Of a stretch of DNA of 64,000 nt, positions 1-39,120 are shown one piece after another. Location: assembly GCA_016200965.1 (NCBI GenBank), contig JACQDT010000001.1, forward strand, positions 3,544 through 67,543. Direction: 5' to 3'. Below the pieces are notes generated by a model. That model had not been told where the DNA came from and ran no database searches. It saw only the letters and a program-made list of their open reading frames with translations. Each line of letters starts with the position of its first letter. Within the stretch, counting starts at the first letter, position 1. This DNA is from Candidatus Azambacteria bacterium (GTDB lineage: Bacteria > Patescibacteriota > Minisyncoccia > GWC2-36-17 > WO2-46-25). Both the position numbers and the translations under genes were made by a program.

Positions 1-107
1 GCGTTTCTGCGCTGATGCGCATCGTAGAGACCTTCCCCTTTTCATCAAGAGAAAACGCGGGAAACTCTTTATGGATAGCCTGTATTGTTGCTTGGAGTGT
101 CGGCATG

Positions 108-1049
108 TTATTTTCTCTTAGCTTTTGTTTTGGTCGTTTTTCGTTTTTTGCTTTGCATTTTTAGTTTCTGGTTGACCCATTCATGGTCGTGCCCGCTCAC
201 ATCCGCCACGCTCAAACCCTGCCGTGCCAGCAGTTTTTCGTTGAATGCGTAATCCTCGCGAAGTAACCGTGCGCCATCGGCAAGTCCCGCACTTTCCAAA
301 TGGTTTTTAAGCGCCAGCAGGTCTTTGGGCAAGCAGAACCCGCCAAAACCCCGGTAGCCGCCGTGCGCGACGTCCAGATGCGAGTCGCCGATGCGGGAGT
401 CCGCCGACATCCCCGCGCGGACGTTTTCATAATCGGCCCCCATGGTATCGGCAAGGCCGGCCAATATGTTCGCAAAATTGATCTTGCGCGCAAAATGCGC
501 GTTGCCGCCGTATTTGATGATCTCCGCTTCCGTCGCCGTGATCATGACTTGTCCGTAGGTGTTCACACCCCACGGCGACATGAACGGCGCCTTGGGCAGG
601 AGCGAAAGCACGGGATGCGCCGCATCGATGCTTTGCGCCGTAAACCCGACTATCTGGCGGTCCGGCTTCATGAAATCTTCCCACGCCTTGCATTCGGTCA
701 AAAACTCGGGATTGAACAAGACCTTATGTCGGGGATATTTTTTCTGGAAATGCTCCGTAGTCCCCGGCGGTACGGTCGATTTCAAAACGACGATCTTTTC
801 GCCTTGTATGCCCGCGAACGCGTGTTCCACCGCAGAAAGATCCGCGGAGCCGTCTGTGCCTCCGGGCGTGGGCACCGAAATGAAAATGATATCCGCTTTA
901 TTGATGTCGTCGCCGTATCCTTTTTTCTGATCGATGTCGAACAGGTGTAGTTGCTTTCCCCTGACGTATCCTTTTTCTTCGAAATAACGCTTCAGCGGCG
1001 TGCCGACCATACCGATGCCGATGATCCCGATGGTGTGTTTGTCATTCAT
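108..1049 (-). CDS. nucleotide-sugar dehydrogenase (UDP-glucose/GDP-mannose 6-dehydrogenase family), short form with Lys-rich C-terminal tail
   Basis: N-terminal Rossmann GIIGIGMVG. NPEFLTE and GGFCLPKD catalytic-Cys motifs typical of the family. Confidence 0.6.
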   Translation of the reverse strand: MNDKHTIGIIGIGMVGTPLKRYFEEKGYVRGKQLHLFDIDQKKGYGDDINKADIIFISVPTPGGTDGSADLSAVEHAFAGIQGEKIVVLKSTVPPGTTEHFQKKYPRHKVLFNPEFLTECKAWEDFMKPDRQIVGFTAQSIDAAHPVLSLLPKAPFMSPWGVNTYGQVMITATEAEIIKYGGNAHFARKINFANILAGLADTMGADYENVRAGMSADSRIGDSHLDVAHGGYRGFGGFCLPKDLLALKNHLESAGLADGARLLREDYAFNEKLLARQGLSVADVSGHDHEWVNQKLKMQSKKRKTTKTKAKRK

Positions 1050-1059
1050 GAACGATGCA

Positions 1060-2523
1060 TTATTGTAATATATTCCTGATCTGTTCGAGTAATGTGGAAA
1101 ACTCGCCGGGCAAAAATATGCCTAGTCCGACAATCACGGCGAGATTGAAAAAAATTGGCGCCACCATGAAACGATTCACTTCCCCGGGCTTTGTGCCTTC
1201 AGGCGGATCGCCAAACAACATGCGGTTCACATGATAGAAAAAACCGGCAAATACCACGACAAAAAGAAGTAATACAGATGCTGCGATCCATGCGTATGCG
1301 CCCGCAAATCCGCCGGCAAGAATTAAAAGCTCGCTGAAAAATATTGAAAACGGCGGCAAACCTACAATCGCCACAAGTCCGAAAATAAAGAGAAGTGAGG
1401 TAACTGGAATAATCCTGATCATCCCGCTCACTCGTGCAATGGCGCCGGTATGATATTTTAAAAGGATATTGCCGGCCGTGAAAAAAAGCATGGATTTAGT
1501 CATAGCGTGATTGAACACATGCCAGAGCGCGCCCAGCACCGAGAGAGGATGTCCGAATCCGATGCCGAGCGTGATAATCCCCATATGCTCAATGCTTGAA
1601 TATGCGAACAGACGCTTGTACTTGCGTGCTACAAGAATAATGAAACTCGCAATAAAAATCGATATGAATCCGAAAATAACAAACAGCGTATTCGTGAAAT
1701 GCTGGTTGCCGAGCGCATCATCCGTGATCACCTTAAATCGTAAAATGCTATACAATGCAACGTTCAGTAAAACACCGGACATCAGCGCCGAAATAGGCGT
1801 CGGTGCGCGGCCATGAGCGTCAGGAAGCCACGTATGAAAGGGAGCTAAACCGACCTTTGTTCCATAACCGACAAAAATAAAAATAAAGGCAATTTTAATC
1901 AATTCGGGATCTAAATGAGATGAGATCCCCAAAACCAACGAAGACCATAGTAATACATCGGAGACATTCGCTCCGGTCCTCAATGAAGCATAATACACCA
2001 AGATAGTCCCAAAGAGCGCAAGCGTAATGCCGACTGTGCAAATAATGAGATACTTCCACGCCGCCTCGATCGTTTTTTCGTTATTATAAAAACTAATGAG
2101 AAAAGCGGTCGCGAGCGTCGTGCCTTCTATGGCAACCCACATCACCGCAAGATTGTTAGAAAGCAGAGCGAGCAACATCGTGCAGATGAAAAGCTGGGTG
2201 AGCGCGTAATATTGCCGGACGCGACGCATACCGATAATACCGCTTTTGAACTCCTCGCCGATATAACCGACGGAATACAAAATCGCAATAAAGGCGACCA
2301 AACTTACTATACCGACAAGATATGCCGACAGGGCGTCCGCCATGAGCATTTTCCCCGGAGAAAATATCGCCCCCCCATGTTCAACCTGTGTCAACAACAC
2401 GAATGAAAGCAGAGTGACGATGCCTTGCGCAATCACATTGGACACCTCTATATTCCTTTTATTTTTCAAAAGGAACGAGGCAATCGCGGTAAGAAAAGGG
2501 ATAATAAGGATGGTAGATAACAT
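1060..2523 (-). CDS. complex I / hydrogenase-4 antiporter-like membrane subunit (NuoN/HyfF-like)
   Basis: Polytopic membrane protein. Hallmark GLAPFHTWLPDAHGRAPTPISALMSG motif of the NuoL/M/N-MrpD family. Confidence 0.7.
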   Translation of the reverse strand: MLSTILIIPFLTAIASFLLKNKRNIEVSNVIAQGIVTLLSFVLLTQVEHGGAIFSPGKMLMADALSAYLVGIVSLVAFIAILYSVGYIGEEFKSGIIGMRRVRQYYALTQLFICTMLLALLSNNLAVMWVAIEGTTLATAFLISFYNNEKTIEAAWKYLIICTVGITLALFGTILVYYASLRTGANVSDVLLWSSLVLGISSHLDPELIKIAFIFIFVGYGTKVGLAPFHTWLPDAHGRAPTPISALMSGVLLNVALYSILRFKVITDDALGNQHFTNTLFVIFGFISIFIASFIILVARKYKRLFAYSSIEHMGIITLGIGFGHPLSVLGALWHVFNHAMTKSMLFFTAGNILLKYHTGAIARVSGMIRIIPVTSLLFIFGLVAIVGLPPFSIFFSELLILAGGFAGAYAWIAASVLLLFVVVFAGFFYHVNRMLFGDPPEGTKPGEVNRFMVAPIFFNLAVIVGLGIFLPGEFSTLLEQIRNILQ

Positions 2524-2524
2524 A

Positions 2525-3196
2525 TTATTCTTTATTTTCCTGAAGCTGGCTTACGTTAATATGATGGAACGTTTGATTAATCTTGAAAAGAAAAATACCC
2601 ATAATCAGAAGCGCAACCAGTACGTCGAACGAGATACTCACTTCAATGAAAAACGGGATGCCAAATGTCGTGATGCTTGCCAGAAAAAAAAGACTGTTTT
2701 CCATGAACAAAAATCCGAGCATTTGTGTAAGCGCTTTCGTGCGGGAAATCATGATAAAAAATCCGATGAGCATCATCGCAAGCGCCATGGTAAGCGCTGC
2801 CTGAGAAAACGGCGCACCGGTCGGGAATACGCGATGCGTTATATAAAACGAGAATACGGTAAGCGCTCCCGCGATCAAAAGAGAACTGGAGGTATTGATA
2901 TAAAATTGCACCTCCCGGTTGACCTTGATCTCTTTGATAAGCCAAAAAAGCATCCCCGGTATCAAACCGACCTTTAACATCAGCGTAAGCAAAAAACCGA
3001 TGTACAGATGCGGCTCATGCATCCCAAAAGCGACAACCGCCATTACCAAACTCAGAAAAAACGAATGGATAATAAATAAATTAATGCAGGCATGCATCCC
3101 TTTTTGGGTCAACACAAGCAATGAGCTCACCAGCATAATGCCGGCGAGAATATTGACAATATGCGCGATGGAGGGGAAAAGAATGTTTGTTTCCAT
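2525..3196 (-). CDS. hydrogenase-4 component E-like small membrane subunit (HyfE/NuoK-like)
   Basis: About 220-aa hydrophobic protein lying between the NuoH-like and NuoN-like genes. Size and position match HyfE. Confidence 0.45.
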   Translation of the reverse strand: METNILFPSIAHIVNILAGIMLVSSLLVLTQKGMHACINLFIIHSFFLSLVMAVVAFGMHEPHLYIGFLLTLMLKVGLIPGMLFWLIKEIKVNREVQFYINTSSSLLIAGALTVFSFYITHRVFPTGAPFSQAALTMALAMMLIGFFIMISRTKALTQMLGFLFMENSLFFLASITTFGIPFFIEVSISFDVLVALLIMGIFLFKINQTFHHINVSQLQENKE

Positions 3197-3201
3197 AGAT
3201 A

Positions 3202-4158
3202 TTACACGAAAAAGCTTGAAATAAGCGCGATAAGCGCAAGCACGAAAGCGATGCCAAGAAAATCAGGCAAACGGAAAAGACGCAGCTTCGCGATGCTGTT
3301 TTCAATGAAAGCGATTACGCATACTGCGATAGAAACCTTGACCACAAGAAGAAATATCGCAAGCATGGCGGACGAAAACGTAAATTCCGCCATCAACCCG
3401 AACGGGAAAAAAATATTCACCAAAAGAACGAGAAAGATGGTCAGTTTGAGCGCCGCCGCCCATTCAATAAGCGCGAGCTGACGCCCGGAATATTCTAAAA
3501 TCATCGCTTCATGTACCATGGTCAGTTCAAGATGCGTTGCCGGATTGTCCACCGGTATGCGTTTATTTTCGGCAAGCAACACGATAAAAAACGCAGCAAA
3601 GGCAAATATATTACTAAGAAGGAAAAGGGAGCCCGGTTCGGCGAGCCCGTGTGAAATGATATTGCTTAAATTCGTCGATCCGCCTGCGCGCGCAACGGCA
3701 AAAATGGCAAGCATCATTGCCGGCTCGGAAAGCGAGTATATCATCACTTCCCTGCTTGACCCCATGCCTCCGAACGCCGATCCCGCATCAAGCCCCGCAA
3801 GCACCATAAAAAATGTTGCAAGCGCAAAAAGATAAATGATTAAAATAATATCGGCGGCGCTTCCAAGGGGCGAGAAGCTGAAAAGTACCGGAACAAAAAG
3901 CGCAACGCCCGCCGCCGCGCCGAAAATGATCCATGGCGCGATGCGAAATATAAATGACGTGTGTTCCGATATCACGGATTCCTTCCGGAAAAGCTTGAAT
4001 GCGTCGTAATACCCCTGCAAGAGCGGCGGACCGACCCTGTTTTGAAGGCGCGCCTTGATTTTCTTGATGGTCATACGCACCAGCGGAGCCGCGGCGATGA
4101 GCATGCCCGCCTGGAAAAAAACGATGCCCGCATATGAAAAAAGTATCGTGGTATCCAT
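3202..4158 (-). CDS. NuoH / HycD / HyfC-like membrane subunit
   Basis: 318-aa polytopic protein with complex I subunit 1 / formate hydrogenlyase subunit 4 architecture; translationally adjacent to its neighbours. Confidence 0.65.
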   Translation of the reverse strand: MDTTILFSYAGIVFFQAGMLIAAAPLVRMTIKKIKARLQNRVGPPLLQGYYDAFKLFRKESVISEHTSFIFRIAPWIIFGAAAGVALFVPVLFSFSPLGSAADIILIIYLFALATFFMVLAGLDAGSAFGGMGSSREVMIYSLSEPAMMLAIFAVARAGGSTNLSNIISHGLAEPGSLFLLSNIFAFAAFFIVLLAENKRIPVDNPATHLELTMVHEAMILEYSGRQLALIEWAAALKLTIFLVLLVNIFFPFGLMAEFTFSSAMLAIFLLVVKVSIAVCVIAFIENSIAKLRLFRLPDFLGIAFVLALIALISSFFV

Positions 4159-4164
4159 AACGAT

Positions 4165-6180
4165 CTATACAAAAACAAAAAGCAACACTAACAGAGCGAT
4201 AAAGATATAGCTCAAATACACATTAATGTTGCCGCCCTGTATTTTTCTCATACTATTGCCCAAGGCAATCATCGCGTTGATAAACGGTTCATAGAGATAC
4301 CGCTCAAAAAGCGGCTCTATTTTTTCTTCGTAGCGCACCGCGGTTACTAAATACTGCGAGCCCTTCAATGTTTCGCGTTCAATGTTGTGCGTGGGGCGAT
4401 ACAAGCCGGAAAAGATGAGTTTAAATGGCATTGCAAAACTGCTTGCGGTATATTCCATCTTTGATTCTACAACCCGACCGCACGCCCAAGTGGGCGCCGA
4501 GCGCTTTCTATGCCTACCCCATATCATAAACATCAACAGCATGCCTGTGGCGATTATGCCGCCGACAAGCGCGATGACCGTAAAAGGAGAAATACGAGTT
4601 GGAAAGGACTGTGCCGGCATAATTGAAAACCAACTTGATACAATGGGATGCCCGAGATGAAGCCCTTCAACGATCGGCATAAACAGCGAAAAACCGATTC
4701 CCGGAATCACTCCCAACGCCACGCACGCGCACGCAAGAAATGCCATGCTTACCACCATGGGCTTACCGGCCTCATGCGCCTCCGAGGCTTCTTTGCTTCG
4801 CGGGAGCGCACAAAACACAATACCATATACCTTCGCAAAACACGCAAGCGCAAGCGCTCCGGTCAGCGCGAGAAGCGCCACAGAGATGCTCACCCCTATT
4901 TTAACCGCAATACTGTCGATCATGAGATTATAAAAAAGCCCTTGGAACACAAGCCATTCGGACACAAAACCATTCAACGGCGGGAGACCGGAAATCGCCA
5001 TCGCGCCGATAAGGAAAAAAACGGCAGTAAAAGGCATATATCTCGCCAGTCCGCCCATTCGTTCCATGTCATTACTGCGCATTATTTTTTGAACCGATCC
5101 GGCGCCTAAAAAGAGCAGGGTCTTGAATATGCTGTGGTTAAGCACATGGTAGAGCGCGGCGATAAGCCCAAGTCCAACAAACGTATATAGACCAAAGGCC
5201 TGAAAAAGGAGCGCCGAACCGATACCGATTAAAATAATCCCTATGTTCTCCACGCTATGATACGCTAAAAGACGCTTAAGATTATGTTCCATGAGCGCGT
5301 ACAACACGCCCATGATGGCGGACACGACTCCCACCGCAAGCACGAGCACCCCCCACCACCATACGGTGTGCGCGCCCAACAGATCGAACGCAAACCGCAC
5401 GATGCCGTATATCGCGATTTTAATCATCGTGCCCGACATAAGCGCGGAGATATGCGTTGGAGCCGCGGGGTGCGCCTCCGGGAGCCAAATGTGGTGCGGT
5501 ACCACTCCTGCCTTCGTGCTGAAACCGATGAACGCAAGTATGAAAATAAGGTTCTGTAGCCAAGGGAACATCCCGCCGCTTTGCAGGCGGAAATCGGAAA
5601 ACTGGAACGATCCTGTTTCTCTGAATAAAAGAAGAAACGCTATCACTAAAAGCGCCGTGCCAAAATGCGTCATTACCGCATACAAAAATCCTGCCCGCAA
5701 TGAACTTTCCTTTTTATACTCGTATGTAACTAAAAAGTAGGATACCACCGACATCAATTCCCATGCCGCAAGGAATACGATCATGTTATCGGCCGCCACC
5801 ACCAGCACCATGGAACAAATGAATGTATTATAAAGAAATCCTAATAAACCCATTGGATATGTCTTCTCATATTGAGATACATATTCAACCGCATATAAGG
5901 AAACTACAAAACCCGTGCCGCATACCAATAAAATAAAAAATGCACTGAGCGCATCCACAGAAAATACTACCGATGCAATTGAAAAAAGATGCCAGGATGA
6001 AAACTGGAACGTCTGATGAGATGCAAAAACAGAAAGCGCGAAAAGAATACCCGTCAGCGAGGCGCACATCGCTATAGTATGAGCGGCTATTTTGGCAATA
6101 TGGGGCGTGCGCCAAAATACGAAGCCCGAAAGCGCTCCCAGTAAAAACAAAAAAAGTGTGGCAAAAAAAAGAATGCCCAT
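4165..6180 (-). CDS. NuoL / HyfB-like large antiporter-type membrane subunit
   Basis: 671 aa, the same size as HyfB. Contains the HHIWLPEAHPAAPTHISALMSG motif. Confidence 0.7.
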   Translation of the reverse strand: MGILFFATLFLFLLGALSGFVFWRTPHIAKIAAHTIAMCASLTGILFALSVFASHQTFQFSSWHLFSIASVVFSVDALSAFFILLVCGTGFVVSLYAVEYVSQYEKTYPMGLLGFLYNTFICSMVLVVAADNMIVFLAAWELMSVVSYFLVTYEYKKESSLRAGFLYAVMTHFGTALLVIAFLLLFRETGSFQFSDFRLQSGGMFPWLQNLIFILAFIGFSTKAGVVPHHIWLPEAHPAAPTHISALMSGTMIKIAIYGIVRFAFDLLGAHTVWWWGVLVLAVGVVSAIMGVLYALMEHNLKRLLAYHSVENIGIILIGIGSALLFQAFGLYTFVGLGLIAALYHVLNHSIFKTLLFLGAGSVQKIMRSNDMERMGGLARYMPFTAVFFLIGAMAISGLPPLNGFVSEWLVFQGLFYNLMIDSIAVKIGVSISVALLALTGALALACFAKVYGIVFCALPRSKEASEAHEAGKPMVVSMAFLACACVALGVIPGIGFSLFMPIVEGLHLGHPIVSSWFSIMPAQSFPTRISPFTVIALVGGIIATGMLLMFMIWGRHRKRSAPTWACGRVVESKMEYTASSFAMPFKLIFSGLYRPTHNIERETLKGSQYLVTAVRYEEKIEPLFERYLYEPFINAMIALGNSMRKIQGGNINVYLSYIFIALLVLLFVFV

Positions 6181-6195
6181 GATATATCCCGCGTG

Positions 6196-6738
6196 TTACG
6201 CTGTTCCTTGATTATTTTTTGATTCAAGCGCGTGCAAAATGCCGGCAAGGATTGCCCGCGGTGTCGGTGGACAACCGCGGATATACACATCTACTGGAAT
6301 CACTTTATCCACTCCGTCCAGCGTCGCATAACTTCCCTTGTAGATGCCCCCATCGCACGCGCAAGAGCCGCATGCAATAACTATTTTCGGATCGGGCGTC
6401 GCTTCGTATGTCCTGAGCACCGCGTCTTTAAGCGCGCGCGTGACCGGCCCGGTGACCAACAACGCATCCGCATGACGCGGAGAAGCAACAATGGAAATTC
6501 CGAATCGCTCCATATCATAATAGGCATTGGCTAGCGCATTGATCTCTATCTCGCACGCATTGCACGATCCCGCACTCACTTGCCGTATTGCAAGCGATCT
6601 TCCAAAAAGTTTTTTGATATGCGCATTCAATTTCTTTCCTATTATCTGAACATCCTCCGGCTGAAATAGCTTCGTGATCTTTTCAGTTTTCAGAGTTATG
6701 GCCCCTGTTTTAATAATTTTTCGGTACAAATCAAGCAT
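6196..6738 (-). CDS. group-4 [NiFe]-hydrogenase small subunit / NuoB-like 20-kDa Fe-S subunit
   Basis: GSCNACEIE (HycG/EchC-type CxxCE), GSCACDGG and IRGCPPTP motifs that ligate the proximal 4Fe-4S cluster. First gene of the minus-strand operon. Confidence 0.8.
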   Translation of the reverse strand: MLDLYRKIIKTGAITLKTEKITKLFQPEDVQIIGKKLNAHIKKLFGRSLAIRQVSAGSCNACEIEINALANAYYDMERFGISIVASPRHADALLVTGPVTRALKDAVLRTYEATPDPKIVIACGSCACDGGIYKGSYATLDGVDKVIPVDVYIRGCPPTPRAILAGILHALESKNNQGTA

Positions 6739-6820
6739 ATTTTAGAAAACGAATATCCGCATAAAAATGCGGAACGTATTGAATATATCACGAAGTATGT
6801 ATCCTACTCCTGCTGGAATT

Positions 6821-6856
6821 TGAAAGTCAAGCCAAAATAGTGGACAATTCTGAATG
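6821..6856 (+). promoter_or_regulatory. candidate sigma70 promoter for rpmE (TGGACA, 17-bp spacer, TATAAT)
   Basis: The sequence gtggacaattctgaatgtatgcgctataatgg lies about 12 nt upstream of the rpmE start codon. Confidence 0.4.
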
Positions 6857-6867
6857 TATGCGCTATA

Positions 6868-7110
6868 ATGGAAAACATGAAAAAAGACATTCATCCCCAG
6901 TATTTTCAGGCCGCGGTAACGTGTGCCTGCGGCAACACGTTCAAAACCGGCTCCACGATGAGCGAAATCAACGTGGAAATTTGCAGCAACTGCCATCCGT
7001 TTTACACCGGCAAACAGAAGCTCGTCGACACCACCGGTCGCGTGGAGAAATTCAATAAAAGAGTCGCCGCACGCGCCGCGAAAAACGCACCAAAGACCAA
7101 AAAGAAGTGA
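6868..7110 (+). CDS. rpmE: 50S ribosomal protein L31
   Basis: MKKDIHPQY ... CxxC ... [18 protein letters not shown] ... GRVEKFNKR, the canonical L31 sequence. Ends in TGA. Confidence 0.9.
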
Positions 7111-8156
7111 ATGAGCGACTTGAAGCCCTGAAAATCGAGCATCGCGATATCGGCCAACAGCTCACCGTGCGTGAAGCTGTTTTTGATTTGAAAGCCCAGC
7201 GCACGCTTGCCAAGCGCCACGCTGAACTGGGAGAGATCATAGAAAAATACGAACGGCTTGAAAACATAAAAAAAGAAATTGCCGATAATGAAGACATTTT
7301 AAAAACCGAAAAAGACGCGGCAATGATCGCGCTTGCGCAGGAAGAACTGGCAAGAAACCATAAAAAGGAAGCAACCATTGAAGAAGAGATCGCTGACTTT
7401 CTCTCTCCGAGCACCCACGGCACATACAAGCATGCCATCGTGGAAATCAGAGCGGGTACGGGCGGAGAGGAAGCGGCGTTATTCGCGGCGCAATTGTACC
7501 GTATGTACACCAGATACGCGCATAATCGCGGATGGAAAGCGGCGCTCATCGACTCCAGCCAGACCCCTCTGGGAGGATTCAAGGAAGTGGTCTTTGAACT
7601 TTCCGGAGCGCGGGTATACGCCGACATGCGCTTTGAAAGTGGCGTGCACCGCGTCCAGCGGATACCGGAAACGGAAAAACAGGGGCGTATCCATACGTCC
7701 ACCGTTTCGGTCGCCGTCCTGCCGGAAGTCGAGGAAAGCGAAATAACCATAAACCCGTCTGATTTACGAGTGGAAACCTACCGCGCCGGCGGCCCGGGCG
7801 GCCAAAATGTCAATAAAGTAGAAACGGCGGTCAGGGTCATTCACATTCCTACCGGCACCGTAGTCGCCTCCCAAGAAGAGCGCTCCCAGGCGCGCAACCG
7901 AGAAAAGGCCCTCCAGATCCTTCAATCAAAGCTCATACAGGCACAGGAAGAAAAAGCGCAAAAAGAACAAGGGCAGATGCGCAAAGAGCAGATCGGCACG
8001 GGAGACCGCTCAGAAAAAATCAGAACATATAATTACCCTCAGGACCGGGTGACGGATCACCGCATCAAGAAAAGCTGGTACAATATTCCGAGCATCATCG
8101 AAGGAAATATGGGAGAAATAATCGAGGAGCTGAAAAAACAAATAGCGGATAGCTAA
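7107..8156 (+). CDS. prfA: peptide chain release factor 1
   Basis: [20 protein letters not shown] (GGQ motif) and a [15 protein letters not shown] PxT-type tripeptide region. GTG start overlaps the rpmE stop. Confidence 0.9.
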
Positions 8157-8171
8157 TGGTAAATGGCAGTA

Positions 8172-9527
8172 TTATAAGCTATTCGCTCCGCCTGAACGCG
8201 CTCCTATTCCTTCAAGCACGTCGATCTGCCCTTGATAATATTCCGCCCAGTCCATCACATTGTTAGCATAGATCTGGGAAACCCTTTTTTTATAATTGCC
8301 TCCGCCGAGATATTTTGCGGCGGCGGTGTGTTCGTCTTTATATGCATGGCTTCCCGCGCCGTTGCCAACAAGCTTCAGGCCGGAAGCGATAAACGCATCC
8401 TCGATGCTCCATGGCGAAGGAGGATTATGCCCGGTCAGCGCCGCGACCTGATGTTCATACGCCGACCATGTGGACGGGATGAATTGCGCCGCCCCCATCG
8501 CGCCGCCCCATCCGTAATACGGGTGCTTGGATACTGGCATAGTATCGGGATCAAGACCGAGTTTCTGTGTGAGTTGTAAAAATATCGGGCGCTCCGCCGG
8601 CTTCATGTCTTTGCGCCATGATCCCCCGCCGACATAGGTGCCAAGCCGCGATTCCACCTGGAATATGGCGAGCAGAAAAGCAGGCCGCACGCCTGTTTTC
8701 TGGCCCGTAAATAATGCTTTCTCTATCGCCTCCCCAAGCGACATGGACACCCCGACGCTTTCCAAAGTGAAAAGCTGTTGGCGTATCATCACTGCATCTT
8801 TCTTTGATTTCTTCAATCCCTCCTGAAAGAGTTTTTCCTGACCTTTTGTTTGTTCAAGGAGGGTTGATTTTTCGCTTTGCTTCTTTTCAAGCGTTTGCTT
8901 CTGCAGAGTGGAGAGATTTTTCAGCCGCACCATGTCATCCTTTTTATCTTCAAGATCGGACCGATCACTTTCAAGATCTTTTCTTATGTCATCTATGTGC
9001 ATGATGAATTCATTCACGTCGCGCTGAATATTTTGAAGGCCGCGCACATGATTGAAGAGATCGGAGAGATTCCCTCCGAAAAACAATGCGCCAACCCAAT
9101 TCACGCCGTCATACTTGTTGAGCTCCTGTAATGAAGCCGCGAGGAGCATTTTCTTTTCTTTCAGCTTATTTTCCAGTCCGCCTATCTCTCCGTTCTTTTC
9201 CTTGATTTCCTGCGCGATTTCGCGCAAATTCAGATCAATCTCTCTGATCTGAAGCTTCTGCTTTTCCATTTCTTTATTCAAAATGCTGATTTCCCGCGTA
9301 AGCGATTTCTGATCCGCTTTCGCCCCTTCAATGCCGTTTTCAAGCTCGGTTATCTGATTCTGCACGTCTTGCAGTTGATTTCTCAGCTCTTCTTTCGTAA
9401 TCGCGGCATCACCGATCTGCGCGCGCGCAGAAACAGCGGGCAACGCCGCCGCATACGCAAAAAAAATAAAAACAAAAACAAAAAGCCCTTCGCACAGCAC
9501 GACAAGGACTTTTTGAGACAGGTTCAT
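8172..9527 (-). CDS. secreted coiled-coil protein with C-terminal lytic-transglycosylase (MltB/SLT-like) domain
   Basis: Signal-peptide-like N-terminus, then about 200 aa of heptad-rich coiled coil. C-terminal VESRLG ... GAAQFIPSTW motif as in MltB-type transglycosylases. Confidence 0.5.
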   Translation of the reverse strand: MNLSQKVLVVLCEGLFVFVFIFFAYAAALPAVSARAQIGDAAITKEELRNQLQDVQNQITELENGIEGAKADQKSLTREISILNKEMEKQKLQIREIDLNLREIAQEIKEKNGEIGGLENKLKEKKMLLAASLQELNKYDGVNWVGALFFGGNLSDLFNHVRGLQNIQRDVNEFIMHIDDIRKDLESDRSDLEDKKDDMVRLKNLSTLQKQTLEKKQSEKSTLLEQTKGQEKLFQEGLKKSKKDAVMIRQQLFTLESVGVSMSLGEAIEKALFTGQKTGVRPAFLLAIFQVESRLGTYVGGGSWRKDMKPAERPIFLQLTQKLGLDPDTMPVSKHPYYGWGGAMGAAQFIPSTWSAYEHQVAALTGHNPPSPWSIEDAFIASGLKLVGNGAGSHAYKDEHTAAAKYLGGGNYKKRVSQIYANNVMDWAEYYQGQIDVLEGIGARSGGANSL

Positions 9528-10228
9528 TATTTCTCCGGCTTCTTTTCTGACTTCTTTTCCGGCTCTTTTTCCGCCGCTTTGGCCACATCGCGTTCTTTCT
9601 TCTTTTCCTCGGTTTCCACCTTCACTTCATCCACCTTCATCACTACTTCCTGTTTGCGCGATTCCAGCTCTGCTTCCATGCGCGGCGGCATCGCTTTGGC
9701 GATGATTTCTTTCGGGTCGCCGAACACCTTCACGCCGTGCGGGATCTTCAGATCCCCGAGCACAATCGTATCGCTGAATGTTTTAAGCGACGAAATATCA
9801 ACTACAACCTCGCGCGGCAGATCTTTGGGTAGCGCTTCAACCTCAATTTTATGCACGTTCCTGACCAGCACTCCGCCAGACGATTTCACCGCTTCGGATT
9901 CTCCGTGAAACACCAACGGAATATGCGTCTTGATTTTCTGATCTTTTTTCACTTCGTAAAAATCAACGTGAGTGATATCACCCTTCAACGGGTCAAGCGA
10001 GACGTCATGGATCAGCACGCTCCTCTGGCCGTCTTCCCCGTTAATATGCAAATCAAGCAGGGTGGTTTCCCCGGCCGATTTATACGCCTTGGCGAACGTT
10101 TTCCCGTCAAGTTTCAAACTGACGTTTTTTATGTTATGGCCGTATAGTACCGCCGGAATGTTTCCCGCTTTTCGGACATGATTCGCTTTTTCAGCGGATG
10201 TTCTGGTATGCGCGATGAGTTTTGTCAT
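9527..10228 (-). CDS. rplY: 50S ribosomal protein L25 / general stress protein Ctc with Lys/Glu-rich tail
   Basis: KANHVRKAGNIPAVLYG ... LKLDG pattern of L25/Ctc. Long charged C-terminal extension. Confidence 0.8.
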   Translation of the reverse strand: MTKLIAHTRTSAEKANHVRKAGNIPAVLYGHNIKNVSLKLDGKTFAKAYKSAGETTLLDLHINGEDGQRSVLIHDVSLDPLKGDITHVDFYEVKKDQKIKTHIPLVFHGESEAVKSSGGVLVRNVHKIEVEALPKDLPREVVVDISSLKTFSDTIVLGDLKIPHGVKVFGDPKEIIAKAMPPRMEAELESRKQEVVMKVDEVKVETEEKKKERDVAKAAEKEPEKKSEKKPEK

Positions 10229-10241
10229 ATGCGGTTATTCG

Positions 10242-10541
10242 TTATTTGTTTTCCAAAAAGGCGTGGATGTCAAGCACATCATCATGCGTAAGCGCCGCTT
10301 TGCGCTTGACCATTTCAAGATCCTTTTCCTGGATATCCGTCAAGACGCCTACCGTGGTCACCATCCCGCCTTCAAGCGAAGATACGGTGAACATAAGCGA
10401 ACTGAGGCATGAAACGCATGTCACACAGCATAATGCGTATGCATCGTTTTTGTCAATGATTGCAAGCCCTTCGTCCCGCAGTTTTTTGCGGCATACGGGA
10501 CATACTCCCAAAAACACGGTGTGTGCGCTTTTACGCTTCAT
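10242..10541 (-). CDS. hypothetical Cys-rich small protein
   Basis: ORF with CPVC and CCVTCVSC clusters. Start trimmed to an internal Met to avoid overlap with the upstream dehydrogenase gene. No recognisable family. Confidence 0.3.
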   Translation of the reverse strand: MKRKSAHTVFLGVCPVCRKKLRDEGLAIIDKNDAYALCCVTCVSCLSSLMFTVSSLEGGMVTTVGVLTDIQEKDLEMVKRKAALTHDDVLDIHAFLENK

Positions 10542-10551
10542 ATGGGCCTGT

Positions 10552-11520
10552 TTAAAGCTTATTGGGGGGCACTCTGCCCTCCAGCGCCTCAATGATGTTC
10601 AATGCGGCAAGTTCAGCCATCTTTCCCCGCGTTTCTTCGGTCGCAGAAGCAATATGGGGCGTGAGTACCGCGTTTGGCAGATCCGCAAGTCCCGGCGCAA
10701 GCGACGGCTCGTTCTCATACACGTCCAGCGCGGCTCCTTTTATCATTCCCTCTTTCAATGCGCGCACGAGCGCTTGCTCGTCCACGATGGGTCCGCGGGA
10801 CGTGTTGACCAGATACGCGGTTTTTTTCATCATGGCAAACTCATTTGTGCCTATCAAATACTTCGTGGCGGGAAGAAGCGGCACGTGAATGGATATGAAG
10901 TCCGATTCTTTCAAAAGCGTCGGCAGATCAACGTATCGCGCCCCGTATTCTTTTTCAAATTCGGCGTTGGGCTTCGGATCGTAATACAACACCTTCATGC
11001 CGAATCCCTTCGCCGCATGATGCGCCACGCGCGACCCTATTCTGCCCAATCCCACCACGCCAAGCGTTTTGCCCGACACATCTGAACCCAAAAGAAGCAT
11101 GGGGGCCCATCCTTTGTAGTTCCCCGCGCGCGTATACGCGTCCGCTTCCGCGATCCGATGCGCGGCGGCAAGGATAAGCGCGAACGTATGCTCGGCAACG
11201 GTGTTGGTCAGCACGCCGGGCGTGTTGGTAACGGTCATGCCACGCTGTTTCGCCGCGTCCAAGTTGATATTGTCGAATCCGACCGCATAATTCGCGAATA
11301 TTTTACACTGCGCTCCCGCCGCTTCAAATACCGCGTCGTCTATCTTATCGGTTAAAAGGCACAGTACCGCGTCATAGCTTTTCCCTTTAAGCGCAACTAT
11401 AAGCTCCTCTTTTGTGAGTACGCCGTCTTTCCCGCTCACCGTCACGTTGTATCCTTTCCCTTCAAGCGCGCGTATCCCCGGTTCCGGAATGCGTCTTGTT
11501 ATAAAAATATGTTGTTGCAT
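10552..11520 (-). CDS. D-isomer-specific 2-hydroxyacid dehydrogenase (glyoxylate/hydroxypyruvate reductase-like)
   Basis: NAD-binding GVVGLGRIGSRVA and catalytic-domain architecture of the D-2-hydroxyacid dehydrogenase family. Confidence 0.8.
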   Translation of the reverse strand: MQQHIFITRRIPEPGIRALEGKGYNVTVSGKDGVLTKEELIVALKGKSYDAVLCLLTDKIDDAVFEAAGAQCKIFANYAVGFDNINLDAAKQRGMTVTNTPGVLTNTVAEHTFALILAAAHRIAEADAYTRAGNYKGWAPMLLLGSDVSGKTLGVVGLGRIGSRVAHHAAKGFGMKVLYYDPKPNAEFEKEYGARYVDLPTLLKESDFISIHVPLLPATKYLIGTNEFAMMKKTAYLVNTSRGPIVDEQALVRALKEGMIKGAALDVYENEPSLAPGLADLPNAVLTPHIASATEETRGKMAELAALNIIEALEGRVPPNKL

Positions 11521-11600: not shown

Positions 11601-12977
11601 ATGACGCTCGGACGAAGAAGAATGTATTTTTTTCTGCTGGTAGCCGTGTTTTTTATCGCGGCGCCGGCGGTTATTTTGTATTCCCAAGGATACACGCTTG
11701 ACCTAAACAATTTTTCGCTCAAAAAAACAGGGGCTATTTTTTTGAGCACGAGCCCGAAAGGAGTGCGGATATTCGTAGACAACCTGCTCGCCGCCTCCAC
11801 GAGCGACATCATTTTCTCGCAAGGAAAACTACTCTCTCACATGGCGCCCAAAGAATACGATGTGAGAATTGAAAAAGAAGCGTATTCCCCGTGGGATAAA
11901 AAGCTTGAAGTGAAACCGCAGCTCGTCACCGAAGCGCGTAATATATTTCTCGTGCCGCAGCGCCCCCTGCCTTTGACAATCGAAAAAAAAGTAAGCGACG
12001 TCATCATCTCCGATTCCAACGCCATGATCGCGTACGTGAAGACGGACGGCGCCGCGATTTTTGACGTATCCTCGCCAAAAATAATCCCGCTGGCCGCACA
12101 GCCGGGAGAAAAAGTGGGAAACGTGCGTTTCGGCGCGGATGAAAATTACCTCGTCGTTGAAAGTTTTTTGAACAACCGCGTGAGAAAATATCTCCTGAAC
12201 GTCGCATCGGGAGAAACCACCCAGATCAGCGAGGATAACAATGAACAATTCATAAAAATCCGCCAATATCCCGCGGGAGAACCGAAAATCATTGCCCTTT
12301 CCTCAAATCGAGAACTCTATTTCATGGATACACGCTCCCAACAAGAAAAAACAACCATTGCGACCAATATAAGCAACTTTGAGCTCTTTGGCGATAAAAT
12401 ACTGTACGCGACGGTTGCACCGACCGTATTTTATGAAAAAGATCTCGTGAGTGGAAAAACAGAACAGCTTAATCAAACCCCTGTTGTACAGTTTGATTTT
12501 TCTTCAAAAATACTGAGATCGCGCGGCGGCTTTGTAGCGTTCATTGATAACGAACAATCGCTCTTTATATACAATCAGGAAGAAAAAATATTCCATCTCA
12601 TCGCAAAGAATGTCCTGAGCGCAATTTTTTCCGACGATGATAAAAAACTAATGTGGCAGAATAAAAATGAGATCTATATATACTACCTGAAAGATATCGT
12701 AATACATCCGCAAAAAGCGGCAGGAGAGATAGAACTCATCACGCGCTTTTCAAAGCCCGTAGGCGCGATTGCGTGGTTTTCATACGACAACGAGCATATT
12801 CTCTTTGCGGCGGACGAAAAACTGAAACTCATAGAACTTGACGGAAGAGATAAAAGAAATGTATACGACATCGCTGAGGTAAAAAAGCCGGTAAAGATCA
12901 TATATAACGATTTTGACGATTTCATTTACTTCCTTGACGGACAGACATTCAAAAAAATCACGCTGATAAAAAACTGA
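11601..12977 (+). CDS. membrane-anchored hypothetical protein with PEGA-like domain and beta-propeller-like repeats
   Basis: N-terminal TM helix. A GVRIFVDN ... YDVRIEKEAY segment resembles a PEGA domain. The repetitive C-terminal region is TolB-like. Confidence 0.4.
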   Translation: MTLGRRRMYFFLLVAVFFIAAPAVILYSQGYTLDLNNFSLKKTGAIFLSTSPKGVRIFVDNLLAASTSDIIFSQGKLLSHMAPKEYDVRIEKEAYSPWDKKLEVKPQLVTEARNIFLVPQRPLPLTIEKKVSDVIISDSNAMIAYVKTDGAAIFDVSSPKIIPLAAQPGEKVGNVRFGADENYLVVESFLNNRVRKYLLNVASGETTQISEDNNEQFIKIRQYPAGEPKIIALSSNRELYFMDTRSQQEKTTIATNISNFELFGDKILYATVAPTVFYEKDLVSGKTEQLNQTPVVQFDFSSKILRSRGGFVAFIDNEQSLFIYNQEEKIFHLIAKNVLSAIFSDDDKKLMWQNKNEIYIYYLKDIVIHPQKAAGEIELITRFSKPVGAIAWFSYDNEHILFAADEKLKLIELDGRDKRNVYDIAEVKKPVKIIYNDFDDFIYFLDGQTFKKITLIKN

Positions 12978-30291: not shown

Positions 30292-31317
30292 ATGAAACAC
30301 CATCTTATCCGCATCCTGCATATCCTCCGCCACATCACGCCCGACGCAAAACAAAAGGCGGAATTTCGCCATGCGCTTGTGTTGCGCGTGCACGCAGATA
30401 CCGCGCACGAAAGAATGTCGCGGCGCGCAAAACCCTCATCCGTATTCTCGTTTTTCCGTCTTGCGCCCACTACGGCGGGCGTGATCGCCGCGGCTGTTAT
30501 CCTCGGAACCGGCGGCGTATCGTTTGCGGCCCAGAACGCGCTCCCGGGAGAACGCCTCTATCCCGTAAAGCTCGCGACGGAAAGAGCGCGCCTTGCCATG
30601 GTTGGCGACAAAGCAGAAAAAACAAAATTACGCCTCACTTTTGCTTCCCGCCGCCTTGATGAGGTGGATAAACTCATAGAAAAAAACGGAAACCAAAACG
30701 TAAACGCCGATGCCGCGCTCGCGCAATACGAGAAGGCGCTCAGCGAGAGCGAAAGCGCGCTTGAAGAAAATCAAGAAAAAGCATCCGAGATAGCGATAGC
30801 GATCAATGATGCCGCGGAGATACACCAGCGCGTCATCCAAAAACTCTCCGATAAGATAGAAAAACTGCCCTCCGCGGCGTCGCTTAAAGAACCCCTTGAA
30901 AATGCGCGGGAAAAAACGGAGGAAAGGGAAAACAGCGCGCTTATCGCCATTGTGTCTGCGACCTCCACGCAACCGGATCTTATTCCGGAAAGATTCGTGA
31001 AAAAATCCCGTGAGAAAGTACAAAAACGGGAACGGAACCTGCGCGAGGCGGCTCTTTCCGTTGAAAAAGCGATGTTAGAAGGCCGGGATGTGAAAGGTGC
31101 TGATGAAAAAATCAAAAACGCTCAATCCATCATCGACCGCGCGAGAGAAGATCTTGATAGAGGGGAAATCCGCGCCTCGCTGGAACAATCAATGGAAGCG
31201 GAGAAAATTACAAAAGAAATAAGAAGGTTTGAACGCAAGCGAGAGAGAGAAAAGGAGCGGGAAGAAAAAGAGACGGAATCTCGACGCAACGAAGATGCTC
31301 TTGATGAGAAGCATTAG
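30292..31317 (+). CDS. putative anti-sigma factor: membrane-spanning, with long charged coiled-coil extracytoplasmic domain (DUF5667-like)
   Basis: Immediately downstream of the ECF sigma gene. One TM helix (VIAAAVILGTGGVSFAA), then about 250 aa rich in E, K and R. Confidence 0.45.
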   Translation: MKHHLIRILHILRHITPDAKQKAEFRHALVLRVHADTAHERMSRRAKPSSVFSFFRLAPTTAGVIAAAVILGTGGVSFAAQNALPGERLYPVKLATERARLAMVGDKAEKTKLRLTFASRRLDEVDKLIEKNGNQNVNADAALAQYEKALSESESALEENQEKASEIAIAINDAAEIHQRVIQKLSDKIEKLPSAASLKEPLENAREKTEERENSALIAIVSATSTQPDLIPERFVKKSREKVQKRERNLREAALSVEKAMLEGRDVKGADEKIKNAQSIIDRAREDLDRGEIRASLEQSMEAEKITKEIRRFERKREREKEREEKETESRRNEDALDEKH

Positions 31318-32414: not shown

Positions 32415-32427
32415 CGGATTAAATGGT

Positions 32428-32500
32428 TTCTTTCTTTACCCCGTTAGTGATCCGCCCTGCCAAAGGCACGGCGTCAGCCGCCTCGGGGCGGCTTATCACT
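32428..32500. repeat. long hairpin overlapping the ccdA 3' end and the ccdA-tlpA intergenic gap
   Basis: ccccgttagtgatccgcc pairs with ggcggcttatcactaacgggg: a 13-bp perfect stem plus a 5-bp extension. Confidence 0.5.
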
Positions 32501-33271: not shown

Positions 33272-33280
33272 GGGCTTGGT

Positions 33281-38143: not shown

Positions 38144-38147
38144 GAAT

Positions 38148-38393: not shown

Positions 38394-38420
38394 TAAAATA
38401 ACTTAATCAAACAATACAAT

Positions 38421-38582: not shown

Positions 38583-38591
38583 TCACCGATC

Positions 38592-39116: not shown

Positions 39117-39120
39117 ATAA

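What the first reader, a model, noticed from the sequence alone, without database searches (positions are those of the whole stretch)
1060..6738. Hyf/complex-I-like membrane module led by a [NiFe]-hydrogenase-type small subunit but without large catalytic subunit, NuoC or NuoI genes
The minus-strand operon order is HycG/NuoB-like (CxxCE, GSCA, GCPP cluster ligands), HyfB-like (671 aa), HyfC/NuoH-like, HyfE-like, HyfF/NuoN-like, then a Ugd-like dehydrogenase.

In Hyf/Hyc/Ech/Mbh systems the small subunit is adjacent to the large [NiFe] subunit and a 2x[4Fe-4S] subunit, by established knowledge. Here the upstream neighbour is divergent rpmE and the downstream gene is unrelated. No NuoD/HycE, NuoC or NuoI homologue lies within the operon inside this window. 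This suggests a reduced module (Q-module remnant plus antiporter arm), as proposed for Ehr/Mbx-like complexes in reduced genomes, or a partner encoded elsewhere.
Basis: partly seen in the sequence, partly recalled or inferred. Interest (0 to 1): 0.55.

Follow-up and report, generated by a model that had tools for sequence, protein, structure and literature searches.

The report
Hydrogenase-related (Ehr) membrane complex operon
This is an ordinary operon for an "Ehr" complex, a hydrogenase-derived membrane ion-pump module of unknown function already reported in these tiny bacteria; the large subunit that looked missing simply runs off the edge of the window.

Summary
The five genes are real and correctly identified. 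They are a NuoB/HyfI-like small subunit, HyfB, HyfC/NuoH-like, HyfE-like and HyfF, followed by a Ugd-like gene.

The headline claim of no large subunit and no NuoC is a window-edge artefact. Window bases 106-1 (minus strand) encode the first 35 residues of a 537-aa fused NuoC+NuoD/HyfG-like large subunit. Near-identical contigs carry the rest of that gene.

The large subunit lacks all four [NiFe]-ligand cysteines, as do its 120 nearest relatives. That places the operon in the known Ehr class (energy-converting hydrogenase-related), already reported in CPR bacteria, Nitrospira, Geobacter and M. tuberculosis. Its function is unknown.

The absence of a separate NuoI/HycF subunit is real, and it holds in most of the 80 other species examined. 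The N-terminus of the small subunit appears to be a remnant of a once-fused NuoI-like domain.

The Ugd-like gene is a relocated sugar-metabolism gene found only in some Azambacteria lineages. The small subunit keeps its [4Fe-4S] ligands, and the ion-translocation residues of the membrane subunits are intact.

Best guess: a minimal ion-translocating module linked to redox chemistry. The gene identities are secure; the mechanism is inferred.

The parts
6196..6738 (-). ehrS: NuoB/HyfI/HycG-like small subunit, 180 aa. It keeps all four [4Fe-4S] ligands (Cys59, Cys62, Cys126, Cys156).
   Evidence: Pfam PF01058 E=4.5e-34. NCBIfam NuoB subfamily NF005012, 142.6 bits against a cutoff of 116. 46.6% identical to E. 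coli HyfI. Ligand columns read CCCC. AF2 model has pLDDT 81, and the best PDB fold matches are HycG 7z0t_G and MbhJ 6cfw_J.
6667..6738 (-). N-terminal ~24 residues of ehrS (MLDLYRKIIKTGAITLKTEKITKL). Probable remnant of a once-fused HyfH/NuoI-type subunit whose 2x[4Fe-4S] core has been deleted.
   Evidence: Alignment with long fused forms and with E. coli HyfH. Profile built from HyfH-type N-termini: the window scores 6.4 bits (reached by 10 of 5000 shuffles), Azambacteria relatives score about 6-15 bits, and P0259 scores 37 bits. The similarity is short, so this is suggestive and not proven.
4165..6180 (-). hyfB/ehrA-type antiporter-like subunit (NuoL-like), 671 aa.
   Evidence: NF005086 hydrogenase 4 subunit B, 699 bits against a cutoff of 667. 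39.5% identical to E. coli HyfB. Keeps E141 (TM5), K223 (TM7), K254 (TM8) and E408 (TM12).
3202..4158 (-). hyfC/ehrB-type NuoH-like subunit, 318 aa.
   Evidence: Pfam NADHdh E=4.6e-47. 32% identical to E. coli HyfC. Charges that are invariant in the family match NuoH R46, K70, R148, E157, R209, D213, E220, E228, K274, R291 and R293.
2525..3196 (-). hyfE/ehrC-type small membrane subunit, 223 aa.
   Evidence: NF008556 hydrogenase 4 membrane subunit, E=9e-28 (97.6 bits, below the 136 cutoff). tblastn with E. coli HyfE E=6e-14. Conserved at this operon position in nearly all 80 loci.
1060..2523 (-). hyfF/ehrD-type antiporter-like subunit (NuoM/N-like), 487 aa.
   Evidence: NF005044 HyfF E=3e-146 (below cutoff). 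39.6% identical to E. coli HyfF. E133, K223, N254 and E398 match the E. coli HyfF pattern.
108..1049 (-). Short Ugd-like NAD-dependent sugar-nucleotide dehydrogenase, 313 aa, with no C-terminal UDP-binding domain. A lineage-specific passenger gene inserted between hyfF and ehrL; not a core subunit.
   Evidence: Pfam PF03721 and PF00984 only. PDB UGDH matches cover residues ~45-270. Absent from all 80 species' loci and from sibling Azambacteria-like loci L088 and L089; present in L086, L087 and L091. Elsewhere in CPR the family sits in NeuB/epimerase/glycosyltransferase clusters. The catalytic GGxCxPKD motif is kept in all 120 relatives.
1..106 (-). 5' end (first 35 codons) of ehrL, the fused NuoC+NuoD/HyfG-like large subunit (537 aa in full). 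It lacks all four NiFe-ligand Cys, and the gene runs off the window edge.
   Evidence: Translation. Continuation in L001 and L002. HyfG tblastn E=3e-76. Motif alignment: RVCGICGFAH aligns to HISGDTSFGH, and DPCYSCTDR to NMSYAGNDL. Best PDB sequence match is FHL HycE 7z0s_E, E=3.4e-76.
6739..6867 (.). Divergent intergenic region between ehrS and rpmE; presumed promoter region of the operon.
   Evidence: Gene layout. Only a weak 9/12 sigma-70-like match on the minus strand at 6830-6801, not above the shuffle expectation. This is inference only.

Best explanation
What it is (about 0.95 confident). The region holds the first five genes and an inserted sixth gene of a seven-gene operon, ehrS-hyfB-hyfC-hyfE-hyfF-[ugd-like]-ehrL, from a Candidatus Azambacteria (Patescibacteria/CPR) genome. 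It encodes a six-subunit Ehr complex (energy-converting hydrogenase-related). The membrane arm has two antiporter-like subunits, a NuoH-like subunit and a HyfE-like subunit. The two-protein peripheral arm is a NuoB-like small subunit with one [4Fe-4S] site and a fused NuoC+NuoD-like large subunit whose [NiFe] site has been replaced by conserved SGD[ST]S..H and N[LM]SY[SA]GNDL motifs. It is neither a hydrogenase nor a complex-I-type quinone reductase.

How it most likely works (inferred, about 0.4 confident). A soluble low-potential donor such as ferredoxin, or an unidentified partner, exchanges electrons directly with the single cluster in EhrS, since there is no NuoI-type relay. A chemical event then occurs in the remodelled pocket at the EhrL/EhrS/HyfC interface. 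That event is coupled, through the conserved NuoH-type E-channel and the Lys/Glu chains of HyfB and HyfF, to H+ or Na+ movement across the membrane, in either direction.

Shown here: gene identities, operon continuity, loss of the NiFe ligands, retention of the Fe-S ligands and retention of the ion-translocation residues. Inferred: the donor, the chemistry in the pocket and the direction of coupling.
For: - Operon continuity and the large subunit.
- NiFe ligands lost in the window protein and in all 120 nearest relatives, with conserved replacement motifs.
- The six-gene block is conserved across phyla in two orders.
- The EhrS [4Fe-4S] ligands are kept here, in all close Azambacteria relatives, and in 103 of the 120 nearest homologues.
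- The antiporter residues match E. coli HyfB and HyfF.
- The NuoH-type charged residues are invariant.
- The closest solved structures are FHL HycE/HycG and Mbh.
- Literature defining Ehr and reporting it in CPR, Nitrospira, Geobacter, M. tuberculosis and AOA, with function unknown: PMC6349859, PMC7304191, PMC10284858, PMC12342949, PMC7894505, PMC6728331, PMC10432482.
Against: - No electron donor, acceptor or partner gene is conserved next to the module. The only recurrent neighbour is an ArsR-type regulator.
- There is no NuoI-type relay.
- The sister CPR clade has lost the EhrS cluster ligands yet keeps the operon and the EhrL motifs. This argues that the core function may not need electron transfer.
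- No biochemical data exist for any Ehr complex in the literature I could reach.
- The rest of the genome could not be searched for ferredoxin, PFOR or quinone genes.
Confidence: 0.5

Rival explanations
1. Non-redox ion transporter. The complex acts as an Mrp-like cation/proton antiporter, or as a ligand- or pH-gated ion translocator. The peripheral arm is a structural or regulatory cap, and the remaining [4Fe-4S] cluster is structural or a redox sensor, not an electron conduit.
For: - Most other Patescibacteria-type loci (L007, L008, L013, L015, L018, L064, L070), and 17 of the 120 nearest EhrS homologues, have replaced the cluster ligands (TCDD, DCGD, SEGD, TEGD). They still keep the whole operon and the EhrL motifs.
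- The ferredoxin domain shows a series of decay states across the family: fused, then degenerate, then deleted.
- No redox partner is conserved nearby.
- All seven group-4f-hydrogenase-related genes were strongly induced by acid stress in a Methylocystis species (preprint 10.1101/2025.08.29.672306).
Against: In the window's own lineage all four Cys ligands are strictly kept across roughly 75-80% identical relatives, and they are kept in most of the family. The former active-site pocket of EhrL is among the most conserved parts of the protein, which suggests chemistry or specific binding and not a passive cap.
Confidence: 0.3
2. One reading: a truly reduced module (small subunit plus membrane arm) that works without any large subunit or NuoC, or with a partner encoded elsewhere in the genome.
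For: Within the 64-kb window no complete NuoD/HycE/NuoC gene exists.
Against: The large-subunit gene starts at window base 106, one base after the Ugd-like stop. It is complete on contigs L001 and L002 and in relatives L086-L092.
Confidence: 0.01
3. A genuine H2-evolving group 4 [NiFe]-hydrogenase (Hyf/FHL-2-like) whose accessory genes lie elsewhere.
For: Best family and structure matches are Hyf and FHL subunits. A sister clade with the same gene order does keep all four NiFe cysteines (L020, L034, L035, L040, L061, L073, L080).
Against: All four metal-ligand Cys are replaced (Ser, Thr, Ser, Gly). There is also no C-terminal extension for endopeptidase maturation.
Confidence: 0.02
4. In this Azambacteria lineage the Ugd-like protein has been recruited as an NAD(H)-binding input module of the complex, taking the place of NuoEFG or HycB.
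For: It is embedded between hyfF and ehrL with gaps of 10 and 1 nt. It is kept in at least three lineages whose EhrL proteins are only ~75% identical. It has a Rossmann fold, lacks the C-terminal sugar-nucleotide domain, and its subclade has a more basic C-terminal tail.
Against: It is absent from sibling Azambacteria-like operons with the same flanking genes and from all 80 other species. The short form without the C-terminal domain is the norm for a large CPR family that sits in surface-sugar clusters. It keeps the catalytic Cys of sugar dehydrogenases. It has no flavin or Fe-S site that could pass single electrons to EhrS.
Confidence: 0.05

Closest known systems
Ehr (Ech/energy-converting hydrogenase-related) complexes. 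Examples: Geobacter sulfurreducens GSU0739-45 (EhrA NuoL-like, EhrC HyfE-like, EhrL, EhrS), Nitrospira Ehr, the M. tuberculosis Rv0081-Rv0087 locus, and the CPR Ehr clade of Jaffe et al. 2020.
   Same: A group-4-hydrogenase-like large subunit without the NiFe CxxC motifs, a NuoB-like small subunit, a NuoH-like subunit, a HyfE-like subunit and two antiporter-like subunits, all in one operon (PMC7894505, PMC7304191, PMC12342949, PMC6728331). Function is unknown in all of them.
   Different: This operon carries a lineage-specific Ugd-like gene inserted before ehrL. Unlike the main CPR clade, its small subunit keeps the [4Fe-4S] ligands.
E. coli hydrogenase 4 (HyfABCDEFGHIJ) and formate hydrogenlyase FHL-1 (Hyc; PDB 7Z0S/7Z0T).
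   Same: HyfB, C, E, F, G and I all have orthologue-like counterparts, 24-47% identical. The antiporter residue pattern is the same. These are the best solved-structure matches.
   Different: No NiFe ligands and no C-terminal maturation extension on the large subunit. No HyfA, HyfD, HyfH or HyfJ. NuoI/HyfH is reduced to a putative ~24-residue N-terminal remnant on the small subunit.
Respiratory complex I (NuoA-N).
   Same: Homologous NuoB, NuoC, NuoD, NuoH and NuoL/M/N modules, with conserved E-channel and antiporter charges.
   Different: The quinone ligands NuoCD His224 and Tyr273 are replaced by an invariant Ile and Gly. NuoB has a CxxC motif where complex I has CC. The window contains no NuoI, NuoA, NuoJ or NuoEFG.
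Pyrococcus Mbh (PDB 6CFW) and Mbx/MBS (PDB 6U8Y) Mrp-linked complexes.
   Same: The peripheral-arm folds are the same. MbhJ is 51% identical to EhrS in the fold alignment, and MbhL matches EhrL at E=1e-44. Like the Ehr complexes, MBS is a non-hydrogenase descendant (from the literature; PMC6349859 calls Mbx a hydrogenase-related complex).
   Different: Mbh and MBS have a NuoI-like 2x[4Fe-4S] subunit and a multi-subunit Mrp module (established knowledge). None of these is present here.

Membership tests
Ehr (energy-converting hydrogenase-related) complex | Large subunit homologous to group 4 [NiFe]-hydrogenase large subunits but lacking the CxxC metal-binding motifs | tested here: met
   HyfG E=3e-76. 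The four Cys positions read Ser, Thr, Ser, Gly. The same holds in all 120 nearest relatives.
Ehr (energy-converting hydrogenase-related) complex | NuoB-like small subunit encoded in the same cluster | tested here: met
   PF01058 E=4.5e-34; first gene of the operon.
Ehr (energy-converting hydrogenase-related) complex | NuoH-like, HyfE-like and Mrp/NuoL-type antiporter-like membrane subunits in the same cluster | tested here: met
   The block is conserved in 80 species.
Group 4 [NiFe]-hydrogenase (Hyf/Hyc/Ech/Mbh) | L1 (RxCGxCxxxH) and L2 (DPCxxCxxR/H) NiFe-ligand motifs in the large subunit | tested here: not met
   HISGDTSFGH and NMSYAGNDL at those positions.
Group 4 [NiFe]-hydrogenase (Hyf/Hyc/Ech/Mbh) | C-terminal extension on the large subunit that is removed by a maturation endopeptidase (HycE/HyfG type) | tested here: not met
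   The protein ends at ...GNDL, where HyfG continues for 32 more residues.
Group 4 [NiFe]-hydrogenase (Hyf/Hyc/Ech/Mbh) | Separate 2x[4Fe-4S] subunit (HycF/HyfH/EchF/MbhN) | tested here: not met
   No tblastn hit and no CxxCxxCxxxC motif in the window, L001 or L002.
Group 4 [NiFe]-hydrogenase (Hyf/Hyc/Ech/Mbh) | Hyp maturation genes in the genome | not testable with these tools
   Only 64 kb plus flanking contigs could be read. None was seen among the 30 largest other ORFs of the window.
Respiratory complex I (NADH:quinone oxidoreductase) | Quinone head-group ligands in NuoD (E. coli NuoCD His224 and Tyr273) | tested here: not met
   Invariant Ile and Gly at those columns in 93 family members.
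Respiratory complex I (NADH:quinone oxidoreductase) | NuoI, NuoA, NuoJ and the NuoEFG input module | tested here: not met
   Not in the operon or the window. The rest of the genome was not searchable.
Mrp-type cation/proton antiporter | Full MrpA-G set (including MrpB, E, F, G) without a peripheral arm | tested here: inconclusive
   HyfB and HyfF hit MrpA/MrpD models only below cutoff. The operon has a peripheral arm and no other ORFs. I ran no explicit search with MrpE/F/G probes.

The most novel reading that the evidence does not exclude
The Azambacteria complex is an intermediate in a stepwise loss of cofactors within one conserved six-gene machine. The sequence runs:
1. NiFe site lost.
2. 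NuoI-type 2x[4Fe-4S] domain fused to the small subunit.
3. That domain degenerates.
4. The domain is deleted, leaving only its N-terminal segment (the state seen here).
5. The last [4Fe-4S] cluster is lost (the main CPR clade).

Throughout, the ion-translocation residues stay intact (tested in the window's subunits), and the SGD[ST]S..H / NLSYSGNDL pocket stays conserved across the family. If this is right, the conserved job of Ehr complexes is not electron transfer. It would be non-redox chemistry or ligand/proton sensing in the old active-site pocket that gates ion translocation. That would be a new functional class of complex-I-like machines.
Probability: 0.2. Interest if true: 0.7.

Novelty: new member of a known kind. 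Interest (0 to 1): 0.3.

Why it matters
As posed, the finding does not matter much. The missing catalytic subunit is a window-edge artefact, and the operon belongs to the Ehr class, which has already been reported in CPR bacteria.

The class itself is a standing puzzle. It is widespread: about half of Nitrospirales genomes carry it, and it also occurs in M. tuberculosis, Geobacter, ammonia-oxidising archaea and many candidate phyla. It has had no known function since it was first named.

Three by-products of this check could help design experiments on how complex-I-like machines couple chemistry to ion pumping. Most of the family lacks a separate NuoI-type subunit. The small subunit seems to retain only the N-terminal stub of a once-fused NuoI-type domain. 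Many CPR members have also lost the last Fe-S cluster. Together these sharpen the question of whether Ehr complexes are redox enzymes at all.

Tried and rejected
- An exact-sequence look-up of the reconstructed large subunit (P0001) found no contig. The contexts came from the small-subunit look-up and from relatives.
- The tRNA scan of the window found none.
- Promoter and terminator scans gave nothing above the shuffle expectation that bears on the operon boundaries.
- Clustering of flanking ORFs across 80 loci, to find a conserved redox partner, returned only an ArsR-type regulator, an ABC-F ATPase and sensor kinases. No formate dehydrogenase, NuoEF or ferredoxin turned up, so the FDH-Ehr idea of PMC6349859 has no support from synteny here.
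- Aligning HyfE to NuoK to test for the NuoK glutamates was unreliable, and I did not use it.
- I considered and rejected a recruited NAD(H) input role for the Ugd-like protein.
- I considered and rejected a complex-I-type quinone site.
- The NJ tree has no support values, so I used it only as a rough guide.
- I did not run the search of protein representatives, a metagenome scan or a large-subunit structure prediction, because they would not change the verdict.
Full report
**Observation.** The minus strand of window 1-6738 carries six tightly packed ORFs, with gaps of 15, 6, 5, 1 and 10 nt. Family scans identify them as follows:
- A NuoB/HyfI-like small subunit, 6738-6196, 180 aa, PF01058 E=4.5e-34.
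- HyfB, 6180-4165, 671 aa, NF005086 at 699 bits, above the curated cutoff.
- A NuoH/HyfC-like subunit, 4158-3202.
- A HyfE-like subunit, 3196-2525, sub-threshold in NCBIfam. It is matched by E. coli HyfE in tblastn (E=6e-14) and is positionally conserved.
- HyfF, 2523-1060.
- A 313-aa UDP-glucose/GDP-mannose-dehydrogenase-family protein, 1049-108, that lacks the C-terminal domain.

tblastn with the E. coli Hyf proteins (locus L005) confirms 24-47% identity to HyfB, C, E, F and I. It finds no HyfA, HyfH or HyfJ, and no third antiporter-like (HyfD-type) gene.

**The missing large subunit is a window-edge artefact.** An exact-sequence look-up of the small subunit returned four contigs. In L002 (GCA_016178885.1), the gene directly after the Ugd-like gene carries Complex1_30kDa and Complex1_49kDa domains. 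L001 is 99.9% identical to window 1-10800 and extends 1.45 kb beyond window base 1.

Window 106-1 (minus strand) translates to MPTLQATIQAIHKEFPAFSLDEKGKVSTMRISAET. This is the N-terminus of that gene, starting one base after the Ugd-like stop. The reconstructed 537-aa protein matches E. coli HyfG at E=3e-76 and FHL HycE (7z0s_E) at E=3.4e-76. It is identical to an NCBI protein from Candidatus Azambacteria (P0001).

It is met for the large subunit and NuoC, but not for a 2x[4Fe-4S] subunit.

**It is not a hydrogenase; it is an Ehr complex.** Aligned to HyfG, the N-terminal ligand motif RVCGICGFAH reads HISGDTSFGH, and the C-terminal DPCYSCTDR reads NMSYAGNDL. The protein ends there, with no maturation extension.

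All 120 nearest relatives lack the four cysteines as well. In their place they share strongly conserved [RK][IV]SGD[ST]SFxH and N[LM]SY[SA]GNDL motifs. The complex-I quinone ligands (E. coli NuoCD His224 and Tyr273) are an invariant Ile and Gly.

This is the defining signature of Ehr complexes (energy-converting hydrogenase-related). They are described in:
- Geobacter, with EhrA/EhrC/EhrL/EhrS at GSU0739-45 (PMC7894505).
- Margulisbacteria, Saganbacteria and Melainabacteria (PMC6349859).
- Comammox and other Nitrospirales, where about half of genomes have it (PMC10284858, PMC12342949).
- Ammonia-oxidising archaea (PMC10432482).
- M. tuberculosis Rv0081-87 (PMC6728331).
- CPR bacteria as a monophyletic, Cys-less clade (Jaffe et al. 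2020, PMC7304191).

All of these sources state that the function is unknown.

**Comparative anatomy.** A scan of one genome per GTDB species returned 80 loci. I annotated them with the window's proteins and the E. coli Hyf probes. Wherever the contig is long enough, the six genes form one block. The order is either S-B-C-E-F-L (Patescibacteria, Rokubacteria, Chloroflexi, Actinomycetes) or B-C-E-F-L-S (Nitrospirota, Acidobacteria, Firmicutes, Verrucomicrobia, Thaumarchaeota). Small and large subunits at opposite ends of the operon is therefore normal for this family.

Only seven loci keep all four NiFe cysteines. They form a basal group in a rough NJ tree.

A separate HyfH/NuoI-like gene occurs in only four loci. 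In nine others a 2x[4Fe-4S] domain is fused to the N-terminus of the small subunit. The window type has neither, and no CxxCxxCxxxC motif exists in any ORF of at least 40 aa in the 64 kb. The absence of NuoI is thus real and holds for most of the family.

**A remnant of NuoI.** The long, fused small subunits begin MF[DE][IV]LK.G.LKKGVVT..YP, as E. coli HyfH does ([20 protein letters not shown]). Short forms, including the window's (MLDLYRKIIKTGAITLK...), align to that same N-terminal segment. They then skip the ferredoxin core and continue into the NuoB-like domain. Thaumarchaeal-type forms keep the length but have lost the first-cluster cysteines.

A profile of the long-form N-termini scores the window's N-terminus at 6.4 bits, reached by 10 of 5000 shuffles. 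Its Azambacteria relatives score about 6-15 bits, against a maximum of 10.5 in 1070 shuffles. One short form, P0259, scores 37 bits.

I read the first ~24 residues of EhrS as a stub left by fusion and then deletion of the NuoI-type domain. The segment is short, so this is suggestive only. An AF2 model of EhrS (pLDDT 81) gives a confident HycG/MbhJ-like core and a low-confidence N-terminal helix.

**Cofactors and coupling elements.** The window's EhrS keeps all four [4Fe-4S] ligands (Cys59, 62, 126, 156). So do its close relatives and 103 of the 120 nearest homologues.

The main CPR clade is different. Daviesbacteria, Saccharibacteria and others (L007, L008, L013, L015, L018, L064, L070) have replaced these ligands (TCDD, DCGD, SEGD, TEGD) while keeping the operon and the EhrL motifs.

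HyfB and HyfF keep the TM5 Glu, TM7 Lys, TM8 Lys (Asn in HyfF) and TM12 Glu, exactly as in E. coli HyfB and HyfF. The NuoH-like subunit keeps the charged residues it shares with NuoH: R46, K70, R148, E157, R209, D213, E220, E228, K274, R291 and R293. The ion-translocation hardware therefore looks functional.

**The Ugd-like gene.** It is present between hyfF and ehrL in the window lineage, in Azambacteria RIFCSPLOWO2_01_FULL_46_25 (L086/L087) and in a 941-kb scaffold (L091). It is absent from two sibling lineages with the same flanking genes (L088, L089) and from all 80 other species.

The short form (about 300-320 aa, no C-terminal domain, catalytic GGxCxPKD kept) is a large and highly conserved CPR family. 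Elsewhere it sits in NeuB/epimerase/glycosyltransferase clusters, next to an epimerase/dehydratase. It is best explained as a relocated sugar-metabolism gene that is co-transcribed with the operon, not as a subunit of the complex.

**Mechanism.** Shown here: a six-subunit, hydrogenase-derived membrane complex with one probable [4Fe-4S] cluster, no NiFe site, no complex-I quinone ligands, no NuoI relay, and intact antiporter and E-channel residues.

Inferred (about 0.4): a low-potential donor exchanges electrons directly with the EhrS cluster. A reaction in the remodelled EhrL pocket is then coupled to H+/Na+ translocation.

The main rival (about 0.3) is a non-redox ion translocator. It is supported by the cluster-less CPR clade, the decay series of the ferredoxin domain, the lack of any conserved redox neighbour and acid-stress induction of related genes in a methanotroph. 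No Ehr complex has been characterised biochemically in the literature I could search.

**Verdict.** The gene calls are right, but the headline interpretation is an edge artefact. The system is an ordinary member of a known but functionally unsolved class. Its minor peculiarities are the Ugd-like insert and the retained Fe-S ligands within a CPR context.

Noticed in passing
window 56659-58209 (+): A 516-aa protein. An N-terminal membrane region has weak RnfD/NqrB similarity (PF03116, residues 153-270, E=1.4e-6). It is fused to a complete FNR-type FAD/NAD(P)-binding module (residues ~276-514; best PDB matches are cytochrome b5 reductase and NqrF). This looks like a stand-alone membrane NAD(P)H-flavin oxidoreductase in a CPR genome, with no Rnf or Nqr operon nearby.
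   Followed up: partly
L007 4305-4895, L008 4202-4798, L013, L015, L018, L064, L070 (small-subunit genes): In the main Patescibacteria Ehr clade the NuoB-like subunit has lost the [4Fe-4S] ligands (TCDD, DCGD, SEGD, TEGD), although the operon and the large-subunit motifs are conserved. 17 of the 120 nearest homologues of the window's EhrS show the same TCDD-type pattern. These complexes would then have no recognisable redox cofactor at all. This is not mentioned in the main text of Jaffe et al. 2020.
   Followed up: partly
P0298, P0305, P0352, P0353 (Nitrosotalea/Thaumarchaeota-type small subunits); L037, L059, L062, L079: The fused ferredoxin-like domain is kept in length but has lost the cysteines of the first cluster. 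It is an intermediate between the full 2x[4Fe-4S] fusion and the deleted form in the window.
   Followed up: partly
L002 5282-6664 and 7618-9084 (GCA_016178885.1) versus window and L001: The deposited MAG contig has in-frame deletions relative to the window and L001. One removes 27 codons in hyfF. The other removes 49 codons in ehrL, taking out the conserved PVGPIHAGVIEPGHFRF region. These are either assembly errors or population variants.
   Followed up: no
L020, L034, L035, L040, L061, L073, L080: A sister group has the same B-C-E-F-L-S order but keeps all four NiFe cysteines (RICGxC...H / ELCYxCxDR), so these are presumably true group-4 hydrogenases. In L073 the large subunit keeps the Cys while the small subunit shows ECED at the cluster positions, an odd combination.
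   Followed up: no
L043 4682-12040 and 12115-19769; also L016, L022: Two complete Ehr-type operons sit back-to-back in a Nitrospirota genome, and second partial copies occur in two other loci. This indicates paralogous Ehr systems within one genome.
   Followed up: no
L002 9207-9800; L086/L087 ~11883-12488; L088 11878-12519; L091 11853-12458: A ~200-aa protein with no Pfam or NCBIfam hit follows ehrL in most Azambacteria loci, ahead of a conserved LemA and M48 peptidase pair. It is absent in L089. Its function is unknown, and it is probably not part of the complex.
   Followed up: partly
16 loci, e.g. L072 ~3022-3954, L026, L067, L069, L084, L085: An ArsR-type HTH regulator is the only recurrent neighbour of the Ehr block. 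It is found mainly in the Actinomycete and Rokubacteria S-first operons. This matches the Rv0081 regulator upstream of the M. tuberculosis locus (that equivalence is from memory plus PMC6728331). The window's operon has no such regulator.
   Followed up: no
window 31314-34619 and 37118-39876: A cluster of thiol-redox genes: a thioredoxin-like/AhpC-TSA protein with a Thioredoxin_10 domain, two DsbD_TM proteins, a DUF6799-thioredoxin fusion and a DUF3179 protein. It suggests an extracytoplasmic disulfide-reduction system.
   Followed up: no
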